From Candidatus Bathyarchaeia archaeon (lineage in GTDB: Archaea > Thermoproteota > CALKCG01 > B24 > JAWCPE01): a stretch of DNA of 64,000 bases. Both the position numbers and the translations under genes were made by a program. How positions within the stretch are numbered: position 1 is the first letter of the stretch; each line of letters begins with the position of its first letter. Positions 37,055 to 47,742 of this stretch are shown here, one piece after another. The DNA lies in the NCBI GenBank assembly GCA_038870415.1, contig JAWCPE010000001.1:6806-70805 (forward strand). The letters are read 5' to 3'. The notes under the pieces were generated by a model. That model had not been told where the DNA came from. It saw only the letters and a program-made list of their open reading frames with translations, and did not search any database.

Positions 37055-37747
37055 CTAGAGCCGGAGGGTTCTCTCCACGTATCTCCCTCTTCTCTCGATC
37101 TCTCGGGTCTTCCGCAGGTTCTCAGAAGCTTTTTCCTCGCCCAGCCCCTCCCGGTAGCCTTCCGAGAAGGCTTGGAAACATTCGTCCGCGATCCTGCAGT
37201 GCGTGCTGCTTAAGGCTCGTTTCATGAGTAGCAGGTCGACGCCCATATCTTCGCTGTCCCAAGAGTAGGAACCTAGGCCGAAGTCCACTAGGAAGATACG
37301 CCTGTCCGAGGCTAAGATCATGTTCGAGGTTGTGAGGTCGCCGTGAACTATCCCGGCGTGATGGAGCCTAGCTATTATTGCGCCTATCTGGCGAGATGTT
37401 GAAGCCCTCTGCTCCGGGCTGCTTGAGGCGAGGGATTCACGCAGCCTTTCACCCTCAATGTAGCTGAGTAGCATCGTCGCATCTAGGGGGCTGAGCAGCA
37501 GGACCGTAGGGGCTGGGACCCCTGCCTCTTTCGCGTCATGCAACAGCTGGGCTTCGTGAACCGTCCTCCTCGTCCTCAAAGCTTGGTCGAGCGGCTCGAT
37601 CCTGTAAGGCTTCGGCGCCCTGAATTTCCTGACCACCTTGAAGCCGTGCCATGTCCCAAGTGAGATAGTAGCCTCTGCGCCCTTGTATAGGACCCGTTCT
37701 TCCACGAAGCTCTCCGCTCGGCCGAGCACATCAGGCCTCGCGCACAT
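37055..37747 (-). CDS. bud32: Bud32/PRPK-type atypical kinase (KEOPS complex subunit)
   Basis: 230 aa. Glycine-loop-like LYKGAEATISLG, catalytic IVHGDLTTSNMIL and FLVDFGLGSYS (DFG) fit the compact Bud32/RIO-like fold. Confidence 0.85.
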   Translation of the reverse strand: MCARPDVLGRAESFVEERVLYKGAEATISLGTWHGFKVVRKFRAPKPYRIEPLDQALRTRRTVHEAQLLHDAKEAGVPAPTVLLLSPLDATMLLSYIEGERLRESLASSSPEQRASTSRQIGAIIARLHHAGIVHGDLTTSNMILASDRRIFLVDFGLGSYSWDSEDMGVDLLLMKRALSSTHCRIADECFQAFSEGYREGLGEEKASENLRKTREIERRGRYVERTLRL

Positions 37748-37856: not shown

Positions 37857-38369
37857 CTATCGCCAGAATCTCCACGATTCTTTCACGCTTGTGTGGCCGC
37901 CGTGTTGGTATGCCTCCGGTAGGACGTAGAGGTAGATTGTGTGGCCGTTGAACCTCTCGATTCGGGTGGCTCTCCAACCGTTCATGCTGAAGTCATGGCT
38001 CACTATACGCGTTCCGGGCCTCGCTTCTCTCTCGAATTTGGGCTTTAGCTTCTCGTTAGCGGTGCTCGTCAAGTACAGTGTTATCACCGTCGCCTCTGAT
38101 AGGTCCGCGCCTTGGAGGTCGGCGTTCACCAGCCTTACACGGCCCAACAGGTTCTTAGACTCGATCAGTCTAAGGTCGGACTTGTAGAGGTCTTCGCGGA
38201 GCTCGTAGCCGATCGCCATCTTCGCTCCAAACTCTGTCACCGCTGTGACCAGCATTCGAGCATCGCCGCAGCCCAAGTCGATCACGACATCTGAGGGCCC
38301 GGCTCCCGCGACTTCAAGCATCTTCCTTACGACCTCAGGCGGCGAAGCCACAAAAGGAGCTAAACTCAC
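37857..38369 (-). CDS. Class I SAM-dependent methyltransferase
   Basis: 170 aa. Motif I is VVIDLGCGDARML. Acidic residue loops follow. Confidence 0.75.
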   Translation of the reverse strand: MSLAPFVASPPEVVRKMLEVAGAGPSDVVIDLGCGDARMLVTAVTEFGAKMAIGYELREDLYKSDLRLIESKNLLGRVRLVNADLQGADLSEATVITLYLTSTANEKLKPKFEREARPGTRIVSHDFSMNGWRATRIERFNGHTIYLYVLPEAYQHGGHTSVKESWRFWR

Positions 38370-43643: not shown

Positions 43644-43829
43644 ATGTGCGAGTTTAAGGTGTTTCTCTCAGGGCAGCTCGTGTTCGAGGATGTAGTCTAC
43701 GCTAAGCTTCAGGGGAGTGACCTTGTGCTCAGAGATGTCCTCGGAAGCCAGAAGATTATCCCGTGCGCCCGCATAGTGGAGGTCAACGTCAGCTCTGAGA
43801 CACTTCTCGTAGAAGGAGTCTCTACCTAA
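43644..43829 (+). CDS. CooT-like small beta protein (N-terminal Met-Cys)
   Basis: 61 aa beginning MCEFKVFL..., with a later Cys (IIPCARIVEV). It resembles the CooT nickel-binding family in size and its Cys2 start. The assignment is weak. Confidence 0.35.
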   Translation: MCEFKVFLSGQLVFEDVVYAKLQGSDLVLRDVLGSQKIIPCARIVEVNVSSETLLVEGVST

Positions 43830-43834
43830 GCCGC

Positions 43835-45655
43835 TTACGGTTCTCCGCCCCCTAACTCTTTGCAAACGTTGGAGACTGCCCTCAACACGTGAGGGGCGGA
43901 TATAACAGCGAAGACCCGCATGAACCTCGGGGAGGCGATCTCCTTGACGACATGGCGGTCTCCGGAGGCCAGGTATCCGCCCAGCACGGCCTCCGCGAAG
44001 CCTTTTGCAAGTCGGGCGTTGAGCGTCAGATGGCTGGTGTAGTATAGGAGTTCGGCGAGGTCCCAGGTGGGCTGCAGCCCTCTCCCCGCTTGTTCAAGGT
44101 CTAGGAAGAAGACTTGGCCTCGTCCATCCGTAAGGATGTTCTCAGGTTTCGGGTCGCCTAGTATGATACCTGTGGCATGGATGCCTGCCAACGTCTTTCC
44201 TATCGCGGAGAACAATGGCAGAGCCTGCTCTAGGGCGTCGCTCGAAGAGAACGCCTTGACTGCCAGCTGTTCGAGGTCTTCGCCTTCCACGTACTCTCTG
44301 TAGAGGACCTTGTCCGCCCAGCTGATGTCGAGCACATCTGGCGCCGCGAAGCCGTGTCTCCGCAGATGGAGTAGCGCGGCGTACTCGTTAGCCATCCTGC
44401 TCCGGCCTCTGAGCGCGAACCTCTGAACCCCGACCGTCCACAAGGCCAGAGGGAACCACTTGAAGCCATGCCAATCCCTGTACTTCTTCGCGACGACACG
44501 CTTCTCTTCACCGTCCCCGGTCAACCTGATGAGGAAGACCGAGTTCACCGCCGATCCAAGTCTCTCAACAGTTCTCGCCTTTGCAGCTTCAGGAGAGCCG
44601 AGCCTCTCTGAGAGCCGTTCAATCGGCATCCGTTCCGAGAGGCTGACCAGGCCTCGCTCTGAGGGCAGGAAGAGATACCTCTCCGGTTCCTCTAAGGCTT
44701 TCTCACGGTTACTGCCCTCCAGCTCCCTCGTCAGCTTAGAAGCGAATTCTTGGGCGACCTCGAGGAGGTTGACGCCTCTACCTGCGTAGCCGTGTACCAC
44801 GTACGCGCTGGCGGCCCTCTTCACGCTCTTGGCGATCTCGGCTACCCTTGCTCGATTCGCGCCGTGCTGTACCCCTGCCTTCTCTGTTAGCTTGTAGTAC
44901 TCACCGTCATACGTGAGGATACCTTCAGCGATTAGGGCTGAGAGCGCTCTTTCGAACCCTAAGCTGATCTTCTTAAGGTTCATCTCTCTACGGTTTCCTT
45001 CCAGCATCCTTACGTAACTGTACCGAACCGGTGGATAGATGCGGGCCCTCCGCCACATCTTGTCGAGGATGAAGAAGACGGGCGAGATGAGTATCTCCGT
45101 CCAGATGCCTGGGTAGTCGGAGATTAGGCCCTGGATGCTCTCCTTAGCCGCCATCTCCGCCTCGTTCAGGTACTCCTCGGAGACCATGGGCTGGTATGGG
45201 GTGAGGAGACGGCCTGCCACAAACTCGCCGAGGTAAGCGTCCTTCACATCTCTCTCGAAGAGTTCTTTGTCGACGGCGAGAACAGAGAACATACCTTTCT
45301 CATACGGCTCGTAATGGTATCGTACATCGTCCCGGTACGGTTCAAGGACCAGAAGCACGTCCACGTCGCTATCTTTCCTAGCGTAGCCCGACACCTGGGA
45401 GCCGTAGAAGCAGGCGGCTACGACCTTCGACCCGTTCCTCTCCGCGAGCCGCTTGCACATCTCCACCGCTGCCAGCCTTGTAGCCTCATCTATCAAGGCG
45501 AGAGACAACCTTCCTCCCCTGTTCTGCTCTCCCATCCTTTCTTTCATCTTCATCGGAGCCTCTCTCATAAACGGATCGACGGCTTGCTGTCGCCGTGCGA
45601 AAACCCGAGGGTTCCAGCAGTGTCGACGAGCTGCCGGCCACTCAGTCCGCTTCAC
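43835..45655 (-). CDS. Fusion protein: minimal nucleotidyltransferase (Pol-beta-like) + winged helix + RIO/Kdo-type protein kinase-like domain
   Basis: 606 aa. The NTase motif is AACFYGSQVSGYARKDSDVDVLLV. The middle region LSALIAEGILTYDGEYYKLTEKA is wHTH-like. The C-terminal kinase-like region has VFLIRLTGDGEEKRVVAKKY (a Lys in a VAKK-type beta-3), catalytic-loop-like HATGIILGDPKPENILTDGRG and FFLDLEQAG. Exact start among the N-terminal Mets is uncertain. Confidence 0.6.
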   Translation of the reverse strand: MKRTEWPAARRHCWNPRVFARRQQAVDPFMREAPMKMKERMGEQNRGGRLSLALIDEATRLAAVEMCKRLAERNGSKVVAACFYGSQVSGYARKDSDVDVLLVLEPYRDDVRYHYEPYEKGMFSVLAVDKELFERDVKDAYLGEFVAGRLLTPYQPMVSEEYLNEAEMAAKESIQGLISDYPGIWTEILISPVFFILDKMWRRARIYPPVRYSYVRMLEGNRREMNLKKISLGFERALSALIAEGILTYDGEYYKLTEKAGVQHGANRARVAEIAKSVKRAASAYVVHGYAGRGVNLLEVAQEFASKLTRELEGSNREKALEEPERYLFLPSERGLVSLSERMPIERLSERLGSPEAAKARTVERLGSAVNSVFLIRLTGDGEEKRVVAKKYRDWHGFKWFPLALWTVGVQRFALRGRSRMANEYAALLHLRRHGFAAPDVLDISWADKVLYREYVEGEDLEQLAVKAFSSSDALEQALPLFSAIGKTLAGIHATGIILGDPKPENILTDGRGQVFFLDLEQAGRGLQPTWDLAELLYYTSHLTLNARLAKGFAEAVLGGYLASGDRHVVKEIASPRFMRVFAVISAPHVLRAVSNVCKELGGGEP

Positions 45656-45925
45656 GTAGTCCGACTCTGTGGAAGACCTCTGCGCAGCGTTCGTTGACGC
45701 GATAAACCTCTAGTCTAGGTACGCTGTACACCTGCCGTCGCCCACTTTGATATGGGTGAAGCCATGCCGGGAGGGTTTCTACAGAACGCGTAGTCCGTAA
45801 GACCTTAGTAAGGCCTCCGTCGATATGGTCGAAGATACGTAGGGTCCGAAGAGAGCTGCTGAGGCCCTTAGGCTCAGCCTGCAAACCCGAGGTGCTTTAC
45901 AGGCCGGAGAGCTGAGTGGTGTCTC

Positions 45926-47008
45926 ATGAGCGCTCGTCTCCGTGGTTCGACGTGGGGTCTCTCGCGACGCTCACGGGAGATGCTCCTGTATATCGCCGAG
46001 TTGGCGGCCAAGCATATTGTTAGCCGGCATGAAGGCGTGTTGGCGGTCTACCTTACTGGGTCTGCTGCGAGGGGGGAAGCCACGCGTTCGAGCGACCTAG
46101 ACCTTTGCGGGGTCCTCCGCGGGGACCCCGTCTTCAGCAGACAACCGCCAATCGTTGCCGCCGGGAGACCTGTCTTCTACCGTCTCCATCCGCTTCGACG
46201 CTACCTAGACGTAGAGCAGCTTCTCAGAACCTCGGTAGTGTTGTCGGCTCAGATCGTTGACTCAGTGGGGCTCTACGACCCAGAGGGGGTCTTCGCGAAG
46301 ATACAGGCGGCTGTACTCCAGCGATACGGCGATCCGTTCTACCTGAAAGCTCGAGTCTCCCTCAGCCTCGAGGTGGCAGAGCGGCATCTCCTTTCAGCAC
46401 ACCTATCAGCTCGTCAGCGGAGAGCCTCTCAGGTTGCGAGCCGACTGGTTCAACTGGTAGTCTATGGGCTAGCCCCTGCTGTCTTCTTCCTGGCCGACCG
46501 CCCTCCTACGGAGCGGAGATGCCTCGCCGCGCTGAGGCCTACATGTGAGACTCTCGGCGCAGATAATCTCTACGAGGAGATAGTCGGTCTTCTCGGCTTG
46601 GAGGAAGCGTCAAGCAGATGGGCGTGGCAAGCAGTAGGCGCGGTTAAGCAGCTCTCACGACTGGCCAGCTCCGTTTTGACGCGGCACAGCCCACAGCTGT
46701 ATTGGATGAACGCCGACTGGCTGAGCAACGCGATGGCTGACTACTTCATCGAGGGCGCGAAGGAGCTGCTCCTAGACGGGGAGAAGGAGGCGTCGATCTT
46801 CTGCTCTATGGTGATCGCATCCCGCCTCTTAGATATCGTGAACGGAGCGGAAGCCTCACTCCCCGCCGGTCTATTGATAGACATGGAGAGGCTGGGTTCA
46901 CGTGTGCTAGGCGCTGACCGTGTTGAGAAACCAGCAATGCCCGCCCGTCTGAGGAGCGCTGGAACCGTCGTCGAGGAGACACGACGGCTTGCCTCAGGCC
47001 AATTGTAG
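45926..47008 (+). CDS. Nucleotidyltransferase-domain protein with ~250-aa C-terminal helical domain
   Basis: 360 aa. The NTase motif is LAVYLTGSAARGEATRSSDLDLCGVL (GSxxRG...SDxD). The downstream all-helical region has no clear family; one possible Rx5H segment (ERHLLSAH) is present. Confidence 0.55.
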   Translation: MSARLRGSTWGLSRRSREMLLYIAELAAKHIVSRHEGVLAVYLTGSAARGEATRSSDLDLCGVLRGDPVFSRQPPIVAAGRPVFYRLHPLRRYLDVEQLLRTSVVLSAQIVDSVGLYDPEGVFAKIQAAVLQRYGDPFYLKARVSLSLEVAERHLLSAHLSARQRRASQVASRLVQLVVYGLAPAVFFLADRPPTERRCLAALRPTCETLGADNLYEEIVGLLGLEEASSRWAWQAVGAVKQLSRLASSVLTRHSPQLYWMNADWLSNAMADYFIEGAKELLLDGEKEASIFCSMVIASRLLDIVNGAEASLPAGLLIDMERLGSRVLGADRVEKPAMPARLRSAGTVVEETRRLASGQL

Positions 47009-47049
47009 AGTAGAGCCACGTTCACGAAGCATGATCGGAGAAGCGAAGC

Positions 47050-47742
47050 CTAACCGGACGCTGCAGCTGTCGCTTTGCCTCCCGTTGTTACCTTTCGACC
47101 GCCGGCCTTCGCCCTCGTAGGACTGACCAGTAGAAGGACGAGGGCGACGATGAGGATGAGGAGGCCGATGGCCGCTGCCGTCTGGAGCTGCAGGCGGAGA
47201 ACATGGACTTCCGCCCAGACGATCAAGGGAAGGAAGCCTAAGACCGCGAGTAGGCCGATTCTCCCAAGCGTCCGCATGAGGATGCGAGCCTTGTCGAGAG
47301 GCCAAGAGGCGAAAGCCAGCGCCAGACCTGCGACGATGAGGCTGGAGGACCCTGACACGAACATAGGTGGATAGCTGAGAGCCTCGAGAATAGCCCAGGG
47401 CGAAGGCCATGAGACCTGCAATGCCAAGATGCCCAGAGCTGAGATGAGGCTGCAGGAGCCCAACAGGACTGAGACCAACGCGGCGCTATTCATGACCGCT
47501 ATCCTATCGTGCGCATCGTCTGGTACCACTCGCAGCCTCAGCCAGGTCGAGACGGTGGTTAGGACAAAGAACATGGCGACCACCGGCCAGTTCGCGATGT
47601 AGTCCTGCACGGCGGAAGCCAGCCCACTCGCGGCAGACCCATGAGCAGACCAGTAGTACCCCACGGTTGCGAAGTTGAGGCCGATAGCCGCTACTAGCGT
47701 CTGCCACCAGAGGCCTCTCAAGGCTGGCGAACTCGCGACCAT
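47050..47742 (-). CDS. Hypothetical polytopic membrane protein
   Basis: 230 aa with about 6 hydrophobic helices and a basic Gly/Lys-rich C-terminus. Confidence 0.4.
   Translation of the reverse strand: MVASSPALRGLWWQTLVAAIGLNFATVGYYWSAHGSAASGLASAVQDYIANWPVVAMFFVLTTVSTWLRLRVVPDDAHDRIAVMNSAALVSVLLGSCSLISALGILALQVSWPSPWAILEALSYPPMFVSGSSSLIVAGLALAFASWPLDKARILMRTLGRIGLLAVLGFLPLIVWAEVHVLRLQLQTAAAIGLLILIVALVLLLVSPTRAKAGGRKVTTGGKATAAASG

What the first reader, a model, noticed from the sequence alone, without database searches (positions are those of the whole stretch)
43835..47008. Divergent pair of nucleotidyltransferase-domain proteins, one fused to wHTH + RIO/Kdo-like kinase
Two back-to-back genes (606 aa on minus, 360 aa on plus; 270-bp shared upstream region) each begin with a Pol-beta-type minimal NTase motif (GSxxxG...DVDV / GSAARG...SDLDL). 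The larger one continues into a winged helix and then a protein-kinase-like domain of the RIO/Bud32/Kdo type. The layout looks like a RIO2-type wHTH+kinase preceded by an NTase. The smaller one has a ~250-aa helical C-terminal domain of no obvious family. MNT domains usually pair with HEPN in toxin-antitoxin or signalling modules; an NTase-kinase fusion next to a second NTase suggests a nucleotidylation/phosphorylation signalling or defence module that I cannot assign to a known system. A CooT-like 61-aa gene sits immediately downstream on the plus strand.
Basis: partly seen in the sequence, partly recalled or inferred. Interest (0 to 1): 0.6.

Follow-up and report, generated by a model that had tools for sequence, protein, structure and literature searches.

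The report
Archaeal nucleotidyltransferase–Bud32-like kinase fusion protein
One gene here encodes an uncharacterised protein found across Bathyarchaeia that joins a nucleotidyltransferase/winged-helix module to a small Bud32/RIO-type kinase; the second nucleotidyltransferase gene beside it is an unrelated neighbour, so the pair is not a signalling or defence module.

Summary
The sequence observation holds. Window 43835-45553 (-) encodes one polypeptide: a Pol-beta NTase, a winged helix, a helical linker and a compact kinase domain. Window 45926-47008 (+) encodes a second NTase. A CooT-like gene lies at 43644-43829.

The two-gene module reading fails. A homologue of the second NTase sits next to the fusion gene only in the two closest relatives among 80 other species-level loci. 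In one other genome the two genes lie on different contigs. Defence-system models give only weak, generic matches.

The fusion belongs to a family of about 550 aa found in 471 species genomes. The best 80 are all Bathyarchaeia, in housekeeping neighbourhoods. Its kinase catalytic residues are invariant (83-84 of 84), and its closest relatives are Bud32/PRPK and Rio1. It is not the KEOPS Bud32, because a canonical Bud32 lies at 37055-37747. The N-terminal half resembles Tam41 (NTase plus winged helix) and kanamycin NTase. The canonical NTase motif is intact here but degenerate in 57 of 84 relatives. In 35 of 78 species loci the gene is followed, operon-like, by an RNase J-family hydrolase.

The smaller protein is a kanamycin-NTase-like enzyme with an intact triad.

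My best guess, not proven, is an ATP-driven Bud32/RIO-type switch acting on RNA or a ribonucleoprotein. Interest is moderate.

The parts
43835..45553 (-). Gene for the NTase / winged-helix / Bud32-RIO-like kinase fusion protein (572 aa in the NCBI model). The ORF can be extended to 45655 (606 aa), but that extension is not conserved.
   Evidence: P0001 is 100% identical over 572 aa. Homologues are 530-590 aa. The AF2 model has pLDDT 85.5 and pTM 0.81.
45179..45496 (-). Pol-beta-type NTase core (aa 20-125) with G51-S52, D63-x-D65 and D95. D102 and G109 are invariant in the family.
   Evidence: Pfam NTP_transf_2 and Polbeta. Motif counts. Secondary structure.
44888..45178 (-). Helical region plus winged helix (aa 126-222: three helices and a beta-hairpin wing at 213-222). 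K137 and E138 are invariant. Together with the NTase core it forms a Tam41-like two-domain unit.
   Evidence: AF2 secondary structure. Foldseek: Tam41 7ecd/6ig2 at E = 3e-7, TM 0.41-0.46, rmsd 6-7.6 A over about 270 columns.
44597..44887 (-). Linker (aa 223-319): two long helices, a beta-hairpin and a short helix. This is the least confident part of the model.
   Evidence: pLDDT 59-93 in this stretch.
43838..44596 (-). Compact atypical kinase domain (aa 320-572). Catalytic residues: K356, E390, G466-D467-P-K469-P-E-N472, D485-L-E487-Q488. A conserved FKWF loop lies between beta3 and alphaC. There is no activation segment.
   Evidence: Pfam APH 34.2 bits; NCBIfam arch_bud32 E = 1e-12, below cutoff. 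PDB phmmer hit to PRPK at 1e-6. Foldseek: PRPK 1.8e-9, Bud32 8unk_B TMt 0.72, Rio1 1ztf. Catalytic residues invariant in 83-84 of 84.
45926..47008 (+). Gene for a kanamycin-NTase-like nucleotidyltransferase: NTase, a helical (HEPN-like) domain and a helical tail of about 100 aa. The ORF is 360 aa; the NCBI model is 342 aa, starting at 45980.
   Evidence: G27, D39, D41 and D100 are invariant in 33 relatives. The profile matches KNTase 6p01/1kny over positions 3-243, E = 7e-11.
45554..45925 (.). Divergent intergenic region. It holds the block CGATCCGTTTATGAGAGAGG just upstream of the fusion gene, conserved in the two relatives aligned, and a unique palindrome CCTTAGTAAGG at 45803-45813 whose core is also conserved in them.
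   Evidence: No Rfam match.
43644..43829 (+). CooT-like 61-aa gene, convergent with the fusion gene. This placement is conserved only in the two closest relatives.
   Evidence: Pfam CooT 43.8 bits. tblastn hits in only 3 loci.
37055..37747 (-). Context and control: the genome's canonical KEOPS Bud32 (230 aa, with HGDLTTSN and DFGL motifs). It shows that the fusion is a separate paralogue.
   Evidence: hmmsearch with the kinase-domain profile. NCBIfam NF011463 233.9 bits (cutoff 188) and TIGR03724 212 bits (cutoff 125). BLASTP to the fusion: 29% identity over 177 aa, E = 6e-11.

Best explanation
Shown. Window 43835-45553 (-) encodes one member of a Bathyarchaeia-wide, vertically inherited family of about 550 aa. 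The protein has two halves:
(i) An N-terminal Pol-beta-fold NTase packed against a winged helix, arranged as in Tam41 and kanamycin NTase.
(ii) After a helical linker, a minimal Bud32/RIO-type kinase domain. Its ATP-binding and phosphotransfer residues are invariant across the family.

Inferred. The conserved chemistry is ATP hydrolysis or phosphotransfer by the kinase domain. That domain would act as an ATP-driven switch, as Bud32 does in KEOPS and the Rio proteins do on pre-ribosomes. The NTase/winged-helix half would be the substrate- and nucleotide-binding platform, most likely for an RNA or ribonucleoprotein. In this genome's subclade the canonical NTase triad and the GR motif are intact, so the protein may also transfer a nucleotide, for example to an RNA 3' end or a phospho-substrate. 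In the larger subclade that site has decayed, and there the gene is usually co-transcribed with an RNase J-family metallo-beta-lactamase hydrolase.

Shown. The adjacent 360-aa gene encodes an independent kanamycin-NTase-like enzyme. Its placement next to the fusion gene is a lineage-specific accident of gene order, not a functional pair.
For: Architecture and fold:
- Domain calls.
- AF2 models: pLDDT 85 and pTM 0.81/0.83.
- Kinase half: closest to PRPK/Bud32 and Rio1.
- N-terminal half: closest to Tam41, then KNTase and HalB.

Conservation across 84 relatives:
- Kinase residues K/E/D/K/N/D/E/Q are invariant in 83-84 of 84. The canonical NTase motif is intact in only 27 of 84.
- The DxD and GR motifs are kept or lost together: 23 keep both, 54 lose both, 7 are discordant.
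- D102, G109 and K137 are invariant and E138 nearly so (83 of 84).

Distribution: 471 species genomes carry a relative, and the best 80 are all Bathyarchaeia. The N-terminal module occurs only inside this fusion (115 hits).

Gene neighbourhood:
- An RNase J-family gene lies directly downstream on the same strand in 35 of 78 species loci. Gaps are mostly -34 to +59 nt.
- This holds despite 23 different upstream neighbours and fusion proteins as low as 37% identical.
- Distant members sit inside translation and transcription clusters: aIF5B-S6e-aIF2gamma-Rpo7-Spt4...S27ae-S24e, and SRP54-Pus10-L21e-Rpo4.

Independence of the second NTase.

Established knowledge: Bud32 and the Rio proteins are thought to work as ATPases on tRNA/KEOPS and pre-40S particles rather than as classical protein kinases (review PMC5007285).
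Against: - No member of the family has been studied, and no substrate is shown.
- The RNA link rests on gene order and on analogy with Bud32 and Rio.
- In this genome the RNase J-like gene is not adjacent and is not in the window.
- The catalytic loop GDxKPEN is ePK-like, with the Lys of Ser/Thr protein kinases, so true protein phosphorylation is possible.
- The only Pfam kinase-family match that passes its cutoff is APH, a family of small-molecule kinases.
- Tam41 works with only one of the three canonical acidic residues (PMC11646218), so loss of DxD does not prove loss of NTase activity.
- The relative orientation of the two halves and the position of the invariant N-terminal residues could not be inspected, because no model coordinates were available.
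Confidence: 0.5

Rival explanations
1. One reading: the two divergent NTase genes, one fused to a kinase, form a nucleotidylation/phosphorylation signalling, toxin-antitoxin-like or anti-phage defence module.
For: The two genes are divergently arranged and share a long upstream region with a conserved sequence block. The arrangement is kept in the two closest relatives. There are weak matches to MntA, HalB, PD-T4-6 and PDC-S09 models.
Against: - The pair is adjacent in only 3 of 86 loci, all close relatives. A scan for other nearby NTases found one in only 2 further loci, and not adjacent.
- Orthologues of the small NTase are unlinked elsewhere. In assembly JAWCLV01 the two genes lie on different contigs.
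- All defence and toxin-antitoxin model scores are far below any cutoff: MntA 30 bits against a cutoff of 60, and PADLOC matches of 29 bits or less on core motifs only.
- No separate HEPN gene is present.
- The surroundings are core housekeeping genes.
Confidence: 0.06
2. The fusion is a bifunctional small-molecule or lipid enzyme. The kinase domain phosphorylates a metabolite, lipid or antibiotic-like compound. The Tam41/KNTase-like half then attaches a nucleotide to it, giving a CDP- or AMP-activated product. Analogies are the choline kinase plus cytidylyltransferase pathway and ANT/APH resistance enzymes.
For: Pfam APH (phosphotransferase enzyme family) is the only kinase-family match above its gathering cutoff. 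The best structural matches of the N-terminal half are the CDP-DAG synthase Tam41 and the aminoglycoside nucleotidyltransferases. Tam41 binds CTP between its NTase and winged-helix domains (PMC7018664).
Against: - By structure and sequence the kinase is nearest to Bud32/PRPK and Rio1, not to APH or choline kinases.
- Two NTase motifs have decayed together in about two thirds of the family while the kinase stays invariant. That does not fit an obligatory two-step pathway.
- Pfam Mmp37/Tam41 is not matched.
- No lipid-synthesis neighbours recur.
- No membrane-binding segment is evident.
Confidence: 0.2
3. The fusion is the writer of a reversible protein modification (phosphorylation or AMPylation by a kinase-fold enzyme). 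The co-operonic metallo-beta-lactamase hydrolase is the eraser, by analogy with SelO and RNase Z.
For: The catalytic loop is ePK-like (DxKPEN). An MBL-fold RNase J-family partner is linked in 35 of 78 loci. There is a precedent: the MBL-fold RNase Z removes AMP added by the pseudokinase SelO (PMC12663964).
Against: This is analogy only. The kinase has canonical phosphotransfer residues, not SelO-like ones (no inverted-ATP signature was examined). There is no activation loop or substrate-docking lobe. The MBL partner carries the RMMBL RNA-specificity domain. The partner is absent next to the gene in this genome.
Confidence: 0.1
4. The kinase half is simply this organism's KEOPS Bud32, fused to an extra domain. 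JGI's automatic name 'Bud32/predicted nucleotidyltransferase' suggests this.
For: The best NCBIfam and PDB matches are Bud32/PRPK. One distant member lies beside S27ae and S24e.
Against: - A canonical Bud32 that passes both curated cutoffs lies 6 kb away, at 37055-37747.
- The fusion scores 48 bits against a cutoff of 125.
- It has GDPKPEN and DLEQ where Bud32 has HGDLTxSN and DFG.
Confidence: 0.01

Closest known systems
Bud32 / PRPK (KEOPS kinase/ATPase) and Rio1/Rio2 atypical kinases
   Same: - A minimal kinase fold with no activation segment.
- The best sequence and structure matches: PRPK at E = 1e-6 (phmmer) and 1.8e-9 (Foldseek); Bud32 8unk_B at TMt 0.72; Rio1 1ztf.
- 29% identity to the genome's own Bud32.
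- A RIO-like D-x-x-Q metal loop and a long beta3-alphaC insertion, read from the sequence.
- A precedent for fusing Bud32 to an N-terminal nucleotide-using enzyme: the Kae1-Bud32 fusion MJ1130 (2vwb/3en9).
   Different: - Scores lie below every curated Bud32 and RIO cutoff.
- The catalytic loop is GDxKPEN (ePK-like Lys), not HGDL[ST]xxN.
- There is no DFG motif.
- It carries about 320 extra N-terminal residues.
- A separate canonical Bud32 exists in the same window.
- The winged helix is not placed directly before the kinase as it is in Rio2.
Tam41 / TAMM41 (Mmp37 family) CDP-diacylglycerol synthase
   Same: A two-domain unit of NTase plus winged helix. It is the best structural match of residues 1-312: E = 3e-7, TM 0.41-0.46, rmsd 6-7.6 A over about 270 columns. 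In a global profile alignment the YGS, D-hhh and [YF][LV]AGR[LF]x[KT]P motifs line up.
   Different: - No Pfam Mmp37 match.
- The profile comparison is not significant: P = 0.017, probability 1-2%.
- The window protein keeps all three canonical acidic residues, whereas Tam41 keeps one.
- The window protein has no membrane-binding tail and is fused to a kinase.
Kanamycin nucleotidyltransferase ANT(4')-Ia (closest known relative of the 360-aa protein)
   Same: The family profile aligns over both the NTase and the helical substrate-binding domain: positions 3-243 against KNTase 10-246, E = 7e-11. The G-S / D-x-D / D triad is intact and invariant.
   Different: - NCBIfam ANT(4')-I scores 11 bits against a cutoff of 350, so it is not a resistance-enzyme orthologue.
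- It has an extra C-terminal helical extension of about 100 aa.
- It belongs to a small, mostly metagenomic family of 320-370 aa proteins (72 representatives).
- Its substrate is unknown.
MNT-HEPN (MntA/HepT) toxin-antitoxin modules and the Hailong HalB defence NTase
   Same: The minimal Pol-beta NTase core motif is shared.
   Different: Scores are well below cutoffs: MntA 30.2 and 21.8 bits against 60; HalB 15.8 against 190. There is no separate HEPN or HalA partner. The gene neighbourhoods are housekeeping.

Membership tests
Pol-beta superfamily NTase (Pfam NTP_transf_2, PF01909) | Pfam score above the gathering cutoff, plus hG[GS]...[DE]h[DE]h and a third carboxylate | tested here: met
   Fusion: 26.4 bits (cutoff 21) with G51-S52, D63, D65, D95. 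360-aa protein: 29.2 bits with G, S, D, D, D100 invariant in 33 relatives. Across the fusion family the motif is intact in only 27 of 84.
KEOPS Bud32 (TIGR03724 / NF011463) | Score above the curated cutoff | tested here: not met
   48 bits against a cutoff of 125. The real Bud32 at 37055-37747 scores 212 and 234 bits.
KEOPS Bud32 (TIGR03724 / NF011463) | HGDL[ST]xxN catalytic loop and DFG metal loop | tested here: not met
   The fusion has LGDPKPEN and LDLEQ. The family consensus is GDCKPEN / DLEQ.
KEOPS Bud32 (TIGR03724 / NF011463) | Physical or genomic association with Kae1 | not tested
   The family clustering of fusion-gene neighbours in 86 loci was not screened for Kae1, and only the top clusters were identified. 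No binding data exist.
RIO kinases (Pfam RIO1, PF01163; Rio2 layout) | Pfam RIO1 score above cutoff | tested here: not met
   17.6 bits against a cutoff of 22. The NCBIfam RIO1-like model gives E = 0.11.
RIO kinases (Pfam RIO1, PF01163; Rio2 layout) | Rio2 architecture: a winged helix directly N-terminal to the RIO domain | tested here: not met
   The winged helix is at about aa 158-222 and the first kinase strand is at aa 325. The winged helix matches structures together with the NTase, as in Tam41. No Rio2 chain appears among the top 50 Foldseek hits.
APH / phosphotransferase enzyme family (Pfam PF01636) | Pfam score above the gathering cutoff | tested here: met
   34.2 bits against a cutoff of 23.2, but the best stretch covers only profile positions 154-230 of 239, which is the catalytic core. 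This is superfamily-level membership only.
Tam41 / Mmp37 CDP-DAG synthase (Pfam PF09139) | Sequence-profile match to the family | tested here: not met
   No hit at E <= 1 for the window protein. No hit at E <= 10 for the 18 family members, though the speed filters drop most matches above about 0.1. hhalign against two Tam41 fragments gives probability 1-2%.
Tam41 / Mmp37 CDP-DAG synthase (Pfam PF09139) | Two-domain fold of NTase plus winged helix | tested here: met
   Foldseek top hit 7ecd at E = 3.2e-7, TMq 0.41 / TMt 0.46. 6ig2_A: rmsd 6.3 A over 264 columns.
KNTase / ANT(4') (360-aa protein) | Homology over the NTase plus the helical substrate-binding domain | tested here: met
   Profile A2 against 6p01/1kan/1kny: E = 7e-11 to 6e-10, positions 3-243.
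KNTase / ANT(4') (360-aa protein) | Equivalog-level score, meaning the same function | tested here: not met
   NCBIfam ANT_4p_I: 11.2 bits against a cutoff of 350.
MNT-HEPN type VII toxin-antitoxin system | MntA score above cutoff and an adjacent HEPN toxin gene | tested here: not met
   30.2 and 21.8 bits against a cutoff of 60. No HEPN ORF lies nearby. Two of 33 relatives of the small protein have an internal HEPN-like match.
Known anti-phage defence systems (PADLOC-DB) | Full-length match to a system protein, with partner genes nearby | tested here: not met
   The best match is PD-T4-6 at 29 bits, over the kinase core only. PDC-S09 gives 25 bits over the NTase motif. No partner genes are present.
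Conserved two-gene module (fusion gene plus second NTase) | Co-localisation across relatives | tested here: not met
   Adjacent in 3 of 86 loci, all close relatives. Unlinked in the loci of P0072 and P0073.

The most novel reading that the evidence does not exclude
The fusion defines a third, Bathyarchaeia-specific branch of the Bud32/RIO group of ATPase-kinases. In this branch the regulated partner is built in: a Tam41-like NTase/winged-helix module. The protein works with an RNase J-family nuclease in a so far undescribed RNA maturation, tailing or quality-control step. The NTase is active in the subclade that includes this genome and has become a non-catalytic RNA- or nucleotide-binding domain in the subclade where the nuclease gene is operon-linked.
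Probability: 0.25. Interest if true: 0.65.

Novelty: new variant of a known kind. Interest (0 to 1): 0.42.

Why it matters
Bathyarchaeia are among the most abundant archaea in sediments and remain hard to culture. A protein of about 550 aa that is conserved in hundreds of their species and has invariant kinase catalytic residues is probably part of their core cell biology, yet it is annotated only as 'hypothetical' or 'nucleotidyltransferase domain-containing'.

If it is an RNA- or RNP-directed Bud32/RIO-type switch with its own NTase module, it would add a new member to a small set of ancient ATPases that control tRNA modification and ribosome maturation. It would also give a natural example of an NTase active site decaying while the fold is kept.

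For genome annotation there are two practical results. The JGI name 'Bud32' is misleading for this family. The apparent two-NTase 'module' should not be propagated as a defence or signalling system.

Tried and rejected
- Bud32 orthology. Rejected: a canonical Bud32 was found in the window.
- The two NTase proteins as recent paralogues. Rejected: only the 77-column NTase core aligns.
- Sequence-level membership of the N-terminal half in Tam41/Mmp37. Pfam found nothing. hhalign and hmmsearch against two Tam41 fragments recovered from PDB alignments were not significant. Only fold-level similarity stands.
- Stand-alone versions of the N-terminal module. A profile search of 5.8 billion proteins returned only the fusion family, plus a few truncated or split copies.
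- Defence. PADLOC gave only weak generic hits.
- A structured RNA in the long intergenic region. Rfam found nothing there. A 22-bit SAH-riboswitch-like match at 46945-47030 is below threshold. Inverted repeats in the region are short and imperfect.
- Literature. No paper in the library links a nucleotidyltransferase and a Bud32/RIO kinase in Bathyarchaeia.
- A structure for the 360-aa protein could not be predicted, because both prediction jobs went to the fusion protein.

Full report
**What is in the sequence**

The window is archaeal and comes from a Bathyarchaeia MAG. The large protein is 100% identical to an NCBI entry named 'MAG: nucleotidyltransferase domain-containing protein [Candidatus Bathyarchaeia archaeon]'. 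The surrounding genes are TBP, ThrRS, an aIF-2B-like protein, the PolD large subunit and a TauE exporter.

- 43835-45655 (-): 606 aa as the maximal ORF.
- 45926-47008 (+): 360 aa.
- 43644-43829 (+): 61 aa.

Pfam confirms the domain calls:
- Large protein: NTP_transf_2 near the N-terminus; APH, Pkinase, Kdo and RIO1 at the C-terminus.
- 360-aa protein: NTP_transf_2.
- 61-aa protein: CooT.

The 606-aa length is over-extended. The NCBI model is 572 aa (start at 45553). The closest homologues start at 'LIDEAT', and residues 1-18 are disordered in the model. The gene is not two genes merged by a missed stop. Well over a hundred distinct homologues of 530-590 aa share the whole architecture, and the single chain folds with pLDDT 85.5 and pTM 0.81.

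**Anatomy of the fusion protein (572-aa numbering)**

| Residues | Element | Notes |
|---|---|---|
| 20-125 | Pol-beta NTase core | G51-S52, D63-x-D65, D95 |
| 126-222 | Helices ending in a winged helix | three helices plus a beta-hairpin at 213-222 |
| 223-319 | Linker | two long helices and a hairpin |
| 320-572 | Compact kinase domain | K356 on beta3; a conserved FKWF loop before alphaC; E390; catalytic loop G466-D467-P-K469-P-E-N472; metal loop D485-L-E487-Q488; only about 12 residues before the next helix, so no activation segment |

For the kinase half, PDB sequence search and Foldseek both put PRPK/Bud32 first, followed by the MJ1130 Kae1-Bud32 fusion and A. fulgidus Rio1. For residues 1-312, modelled separately (pLDDT 85.2, pTM 0.83), the best structural match is the CDP-DAG synthase Tam41: E = 3e-7, TM 0.41-0.46, rmsd 6-7.6 A over about 270 columns. 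Kanamycin nucleotidyltransferase and Hailong HalB follow. Tam41 is itself an NTase plus a winged helix, with CTP bound between the two domains (PMC7018664). The winged helix therefore belongs structurally with the NTase, not with the kinase as in Rio2.

At the sequence level, membership in Tam41/Mmp37 is not supported:
- Pfam gives no hit.
- hhalign against two Tam41 fragments is not significant.
- In a global alignment, however, the YGS, D-hhh and AGR(L/F)x(K/T)P motifs do line up.

**It is not the genome's Bud32**

A profile of the kinase half found a second kinase-like ORF in the window, at 37055-37747 (-). That ORF has the HGDLTTSN and DFGL motifs and passes both curated Bud32 cutoffs: 233.9 bits against 188, and 212 against 125. 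The fusion scores 48 bits against 125 and is 29% identical to the true Bud32. The JGI name 'Bud32/predicted nucleotidyltransferase' is therefore a domain-level label, not an orthology call.

**Family and conservation**

A scan of one genome per species found 471 genomes encoding a relative, and the best 80 are all Bathyarchaeia. One branch is labelled Nitrososphaerota by NCBI. A profile of the N-terminal half, searched against 5.8 billion proteins, returned only this fusion family.

Conservation was counted in 84 non-identical relatives taken from species-level loci:
- The kinase residues K, E, D, K, N, D, E and Q are invariant in 83-84 of 84.
- The canonical NTase motif (G ... [DE]x[DE]) is intact in only 27 of 84.
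- The GR of the AGR motif is kept or lost together with it: 23 keep both, 54 lose both, 7 are discordant.
- Other N-terminal residues (D102, G109, K137) are invariant in all 84, and E138 in 83 of 84.

The family-wide constraint is therefore on the kinase site and on a non-canonical set of N-terminal residues. The canonical NTase site survives in a subclade that includes this window. One caveat applies: Tam41 is active with only one of the three acidic residues (PMC11646218), so decay of the motif is not proof of inactivity.

**Gene neighbourhood**

I clustered all flanking ORFs of 86 loci plus the window.

- A homologue of the 360-aa NTase is adjacent to the fusion gene only in L001/L002 (the same sequence from two samples) and L007. 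These are the relatives whose fusion protein is 74-75% identical.
- The CooT-like gene and the 230-aa membrane protein at 47050-47742 travel with the fusion gene in the same three loci only.
- A motif scan for any other NTase in the flanks found one in just two further loci, and it was not adjacent.
- The 43% and 32% orthologues of the small NTase lie next to unrelated genes. In assembly JAWCLV01 the fusion gene and the NTase orthologue are on contigs 18 and 5 respectively.

The recurrent partner is a different gene: a protein of about 450 aa with Lactamase_B_2 and RMMBL domains. It matches the RNase J family model at E = 2.8e-30, below the cutoff. Its best PDB match is EF2904 (2az4), followed by RNase J structures. 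This gene lies directly downstream on the same strand in 35 of 78 species loci, with gaps mostly from -34 to +59 nt. That holds despite 23 different upstream neighbours and fusion proteins only 37-46% identical in typical pairs. Thirty-four of these 35 loci belong to the degenerate-NTase subclade.

More distant family members sit inside classical information-processing clusters: aIF5B-S6e-aIF2gamma-Rpo7-Spt4-DUF359-[fusion]-S27ae-S24e, and SRP54-Pus10-L21e-Rpo4.

**The 360-aa protein**

An exhaustive phmmer search of 1.84 billion representatives found 72 relatives, all 320-370 aa where full length. G27, D39, D41 and D100 are invariant in 33 of them. The family profile matches kanamycin nucleotidyltransferase over both the NTase and the helical domain, E = 7e-11, and two relatives touch the HEPN model.

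This is a KNTase-like, probably active, nucleotidyltransferase with an extra helical tail of about 100 aa and an unknown substrate. It is not an ANT(4') equivalog: 11 bits against a cutoff of 350. Named members of the family are from Bathyarchaeia.

**Interpretation**

Shown:
- The domain architecture, the folds and the intact catalytic motifs in this genome.
- Family-wide invariance of the kinase site.
- Independence from the neighbouring NTase.
- The absence of defence signatures.
- Linkage with an RNase J-family gene in a large subclade.

Inferred:
- The kinase domain works as an ATP-driven switch or kinase, in the manner proposed for Bud32 and the Rio proteins (PMC5007285).
- The NTase/winged-helix half binds nucleotide and substrate.
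- The substrate is RNA or an RNP. This rests on the winged helix, the nuclease partner and the translation/transcription neighbourhoods.

**Novelty and score**

All the folds are known, and databases already carry domain-level labels. I found no description of this architecture or family in the paper library, and no member has been characterised. I rate it a new variant of known kinds. Interest is moderate (0.42): the eye-catching 'pair of NTases' is a coincidence of gene order, but the fusion family itself is a widespread, unstudied, probably core Bathyarchaeial enzyme.

Noticed in passing
window 37055-37747 (-): Canonical KEOPS Bud32 (230 aa) that passes the curated cutoffs. The ORFs listed on either side (a 170-aa ORF at 37857-38369 and small ORFs) do not look like Kae1, although a review says bud32 and kae1 are adjacent in nearly all archaeal genomes (PMC5007285). 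I did not search for Kae1.
   Followed up: partly
window about 45140-45145 (between the codons for K137 and E138 of the fusion protein): The window protein lacks 5 residues that all 32 aligned homologues have (for example 'TRFVK' in the 75%-identical relative). This brings the near-invariant K137 and the invariant E138 next to each other. It may be a real in-frame deletion or an assembly error. Model confidence dips slightly there.
   Followed up: no
window 45803-45813, and 45554-45580: A unique palindrome CCTTAGTAAGG (0 expected by chance) lies in the divergent intergenic region. Its core, CTACTAAG[GC]TCTT, is conserved in L001 and L007. A second conserved block, CGATCCGTTTATGAGAGAGG, abuts the annotated start of the fusion gene and may be a TATA-like element, which would push the true start downstream to 'LIDEAT'.
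   Followed up: partly
L017-L086 (for example L064:3291-4643): An RNase J-family beta-CASP/MBL gene of about 450 aa (motif SHAHFDH; best PDB match EF2904, 2az4) lies directly downstream of the fusion gene in 35 of 78 species loci. It is often followed by a convergent 543-aa coiled-coil protein of unknown function (cluster 3, found in 26 loci).
   Followed up: partly
window 47050-47742 (-): A 230-aa multi-pass membrane protein with no Pfam match. It is conserved next to the 360-aa NTase gene in the same three close relatives (54-61% identity) and is convergent with it, 41 nt apart.
   Followed up: no
window 46945-47030 (+): A weak SAH-riboswitch-like Rfam match (22.1 bits against a gathering score of 37, E = 0.48) spans the 3' end of the 360-aa gene. 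It is probably chance.
   Followed up: no
P0209 (306 aa, 60.7-kb contig), P0234 (293 aa, 187-kb contig), P0198, P0216: A few family members are called as N-terminal-half-only proteins on long contigs. They may be split genes, frameshifts or genuine stand-alone NTase/winged-helix modules.
   Followed up: no
L010-L014 (upstream of the fusion gene): In the 44-45%-identity subclade the fusion gene is preceded, on the same strand, by a 955-aa Lhr-like helicase-type ORF (cluster 17; identified from its sequence appearance only, not by a family search). It is followed by a convergent TBP gene, as in this window.
   Followed up: no
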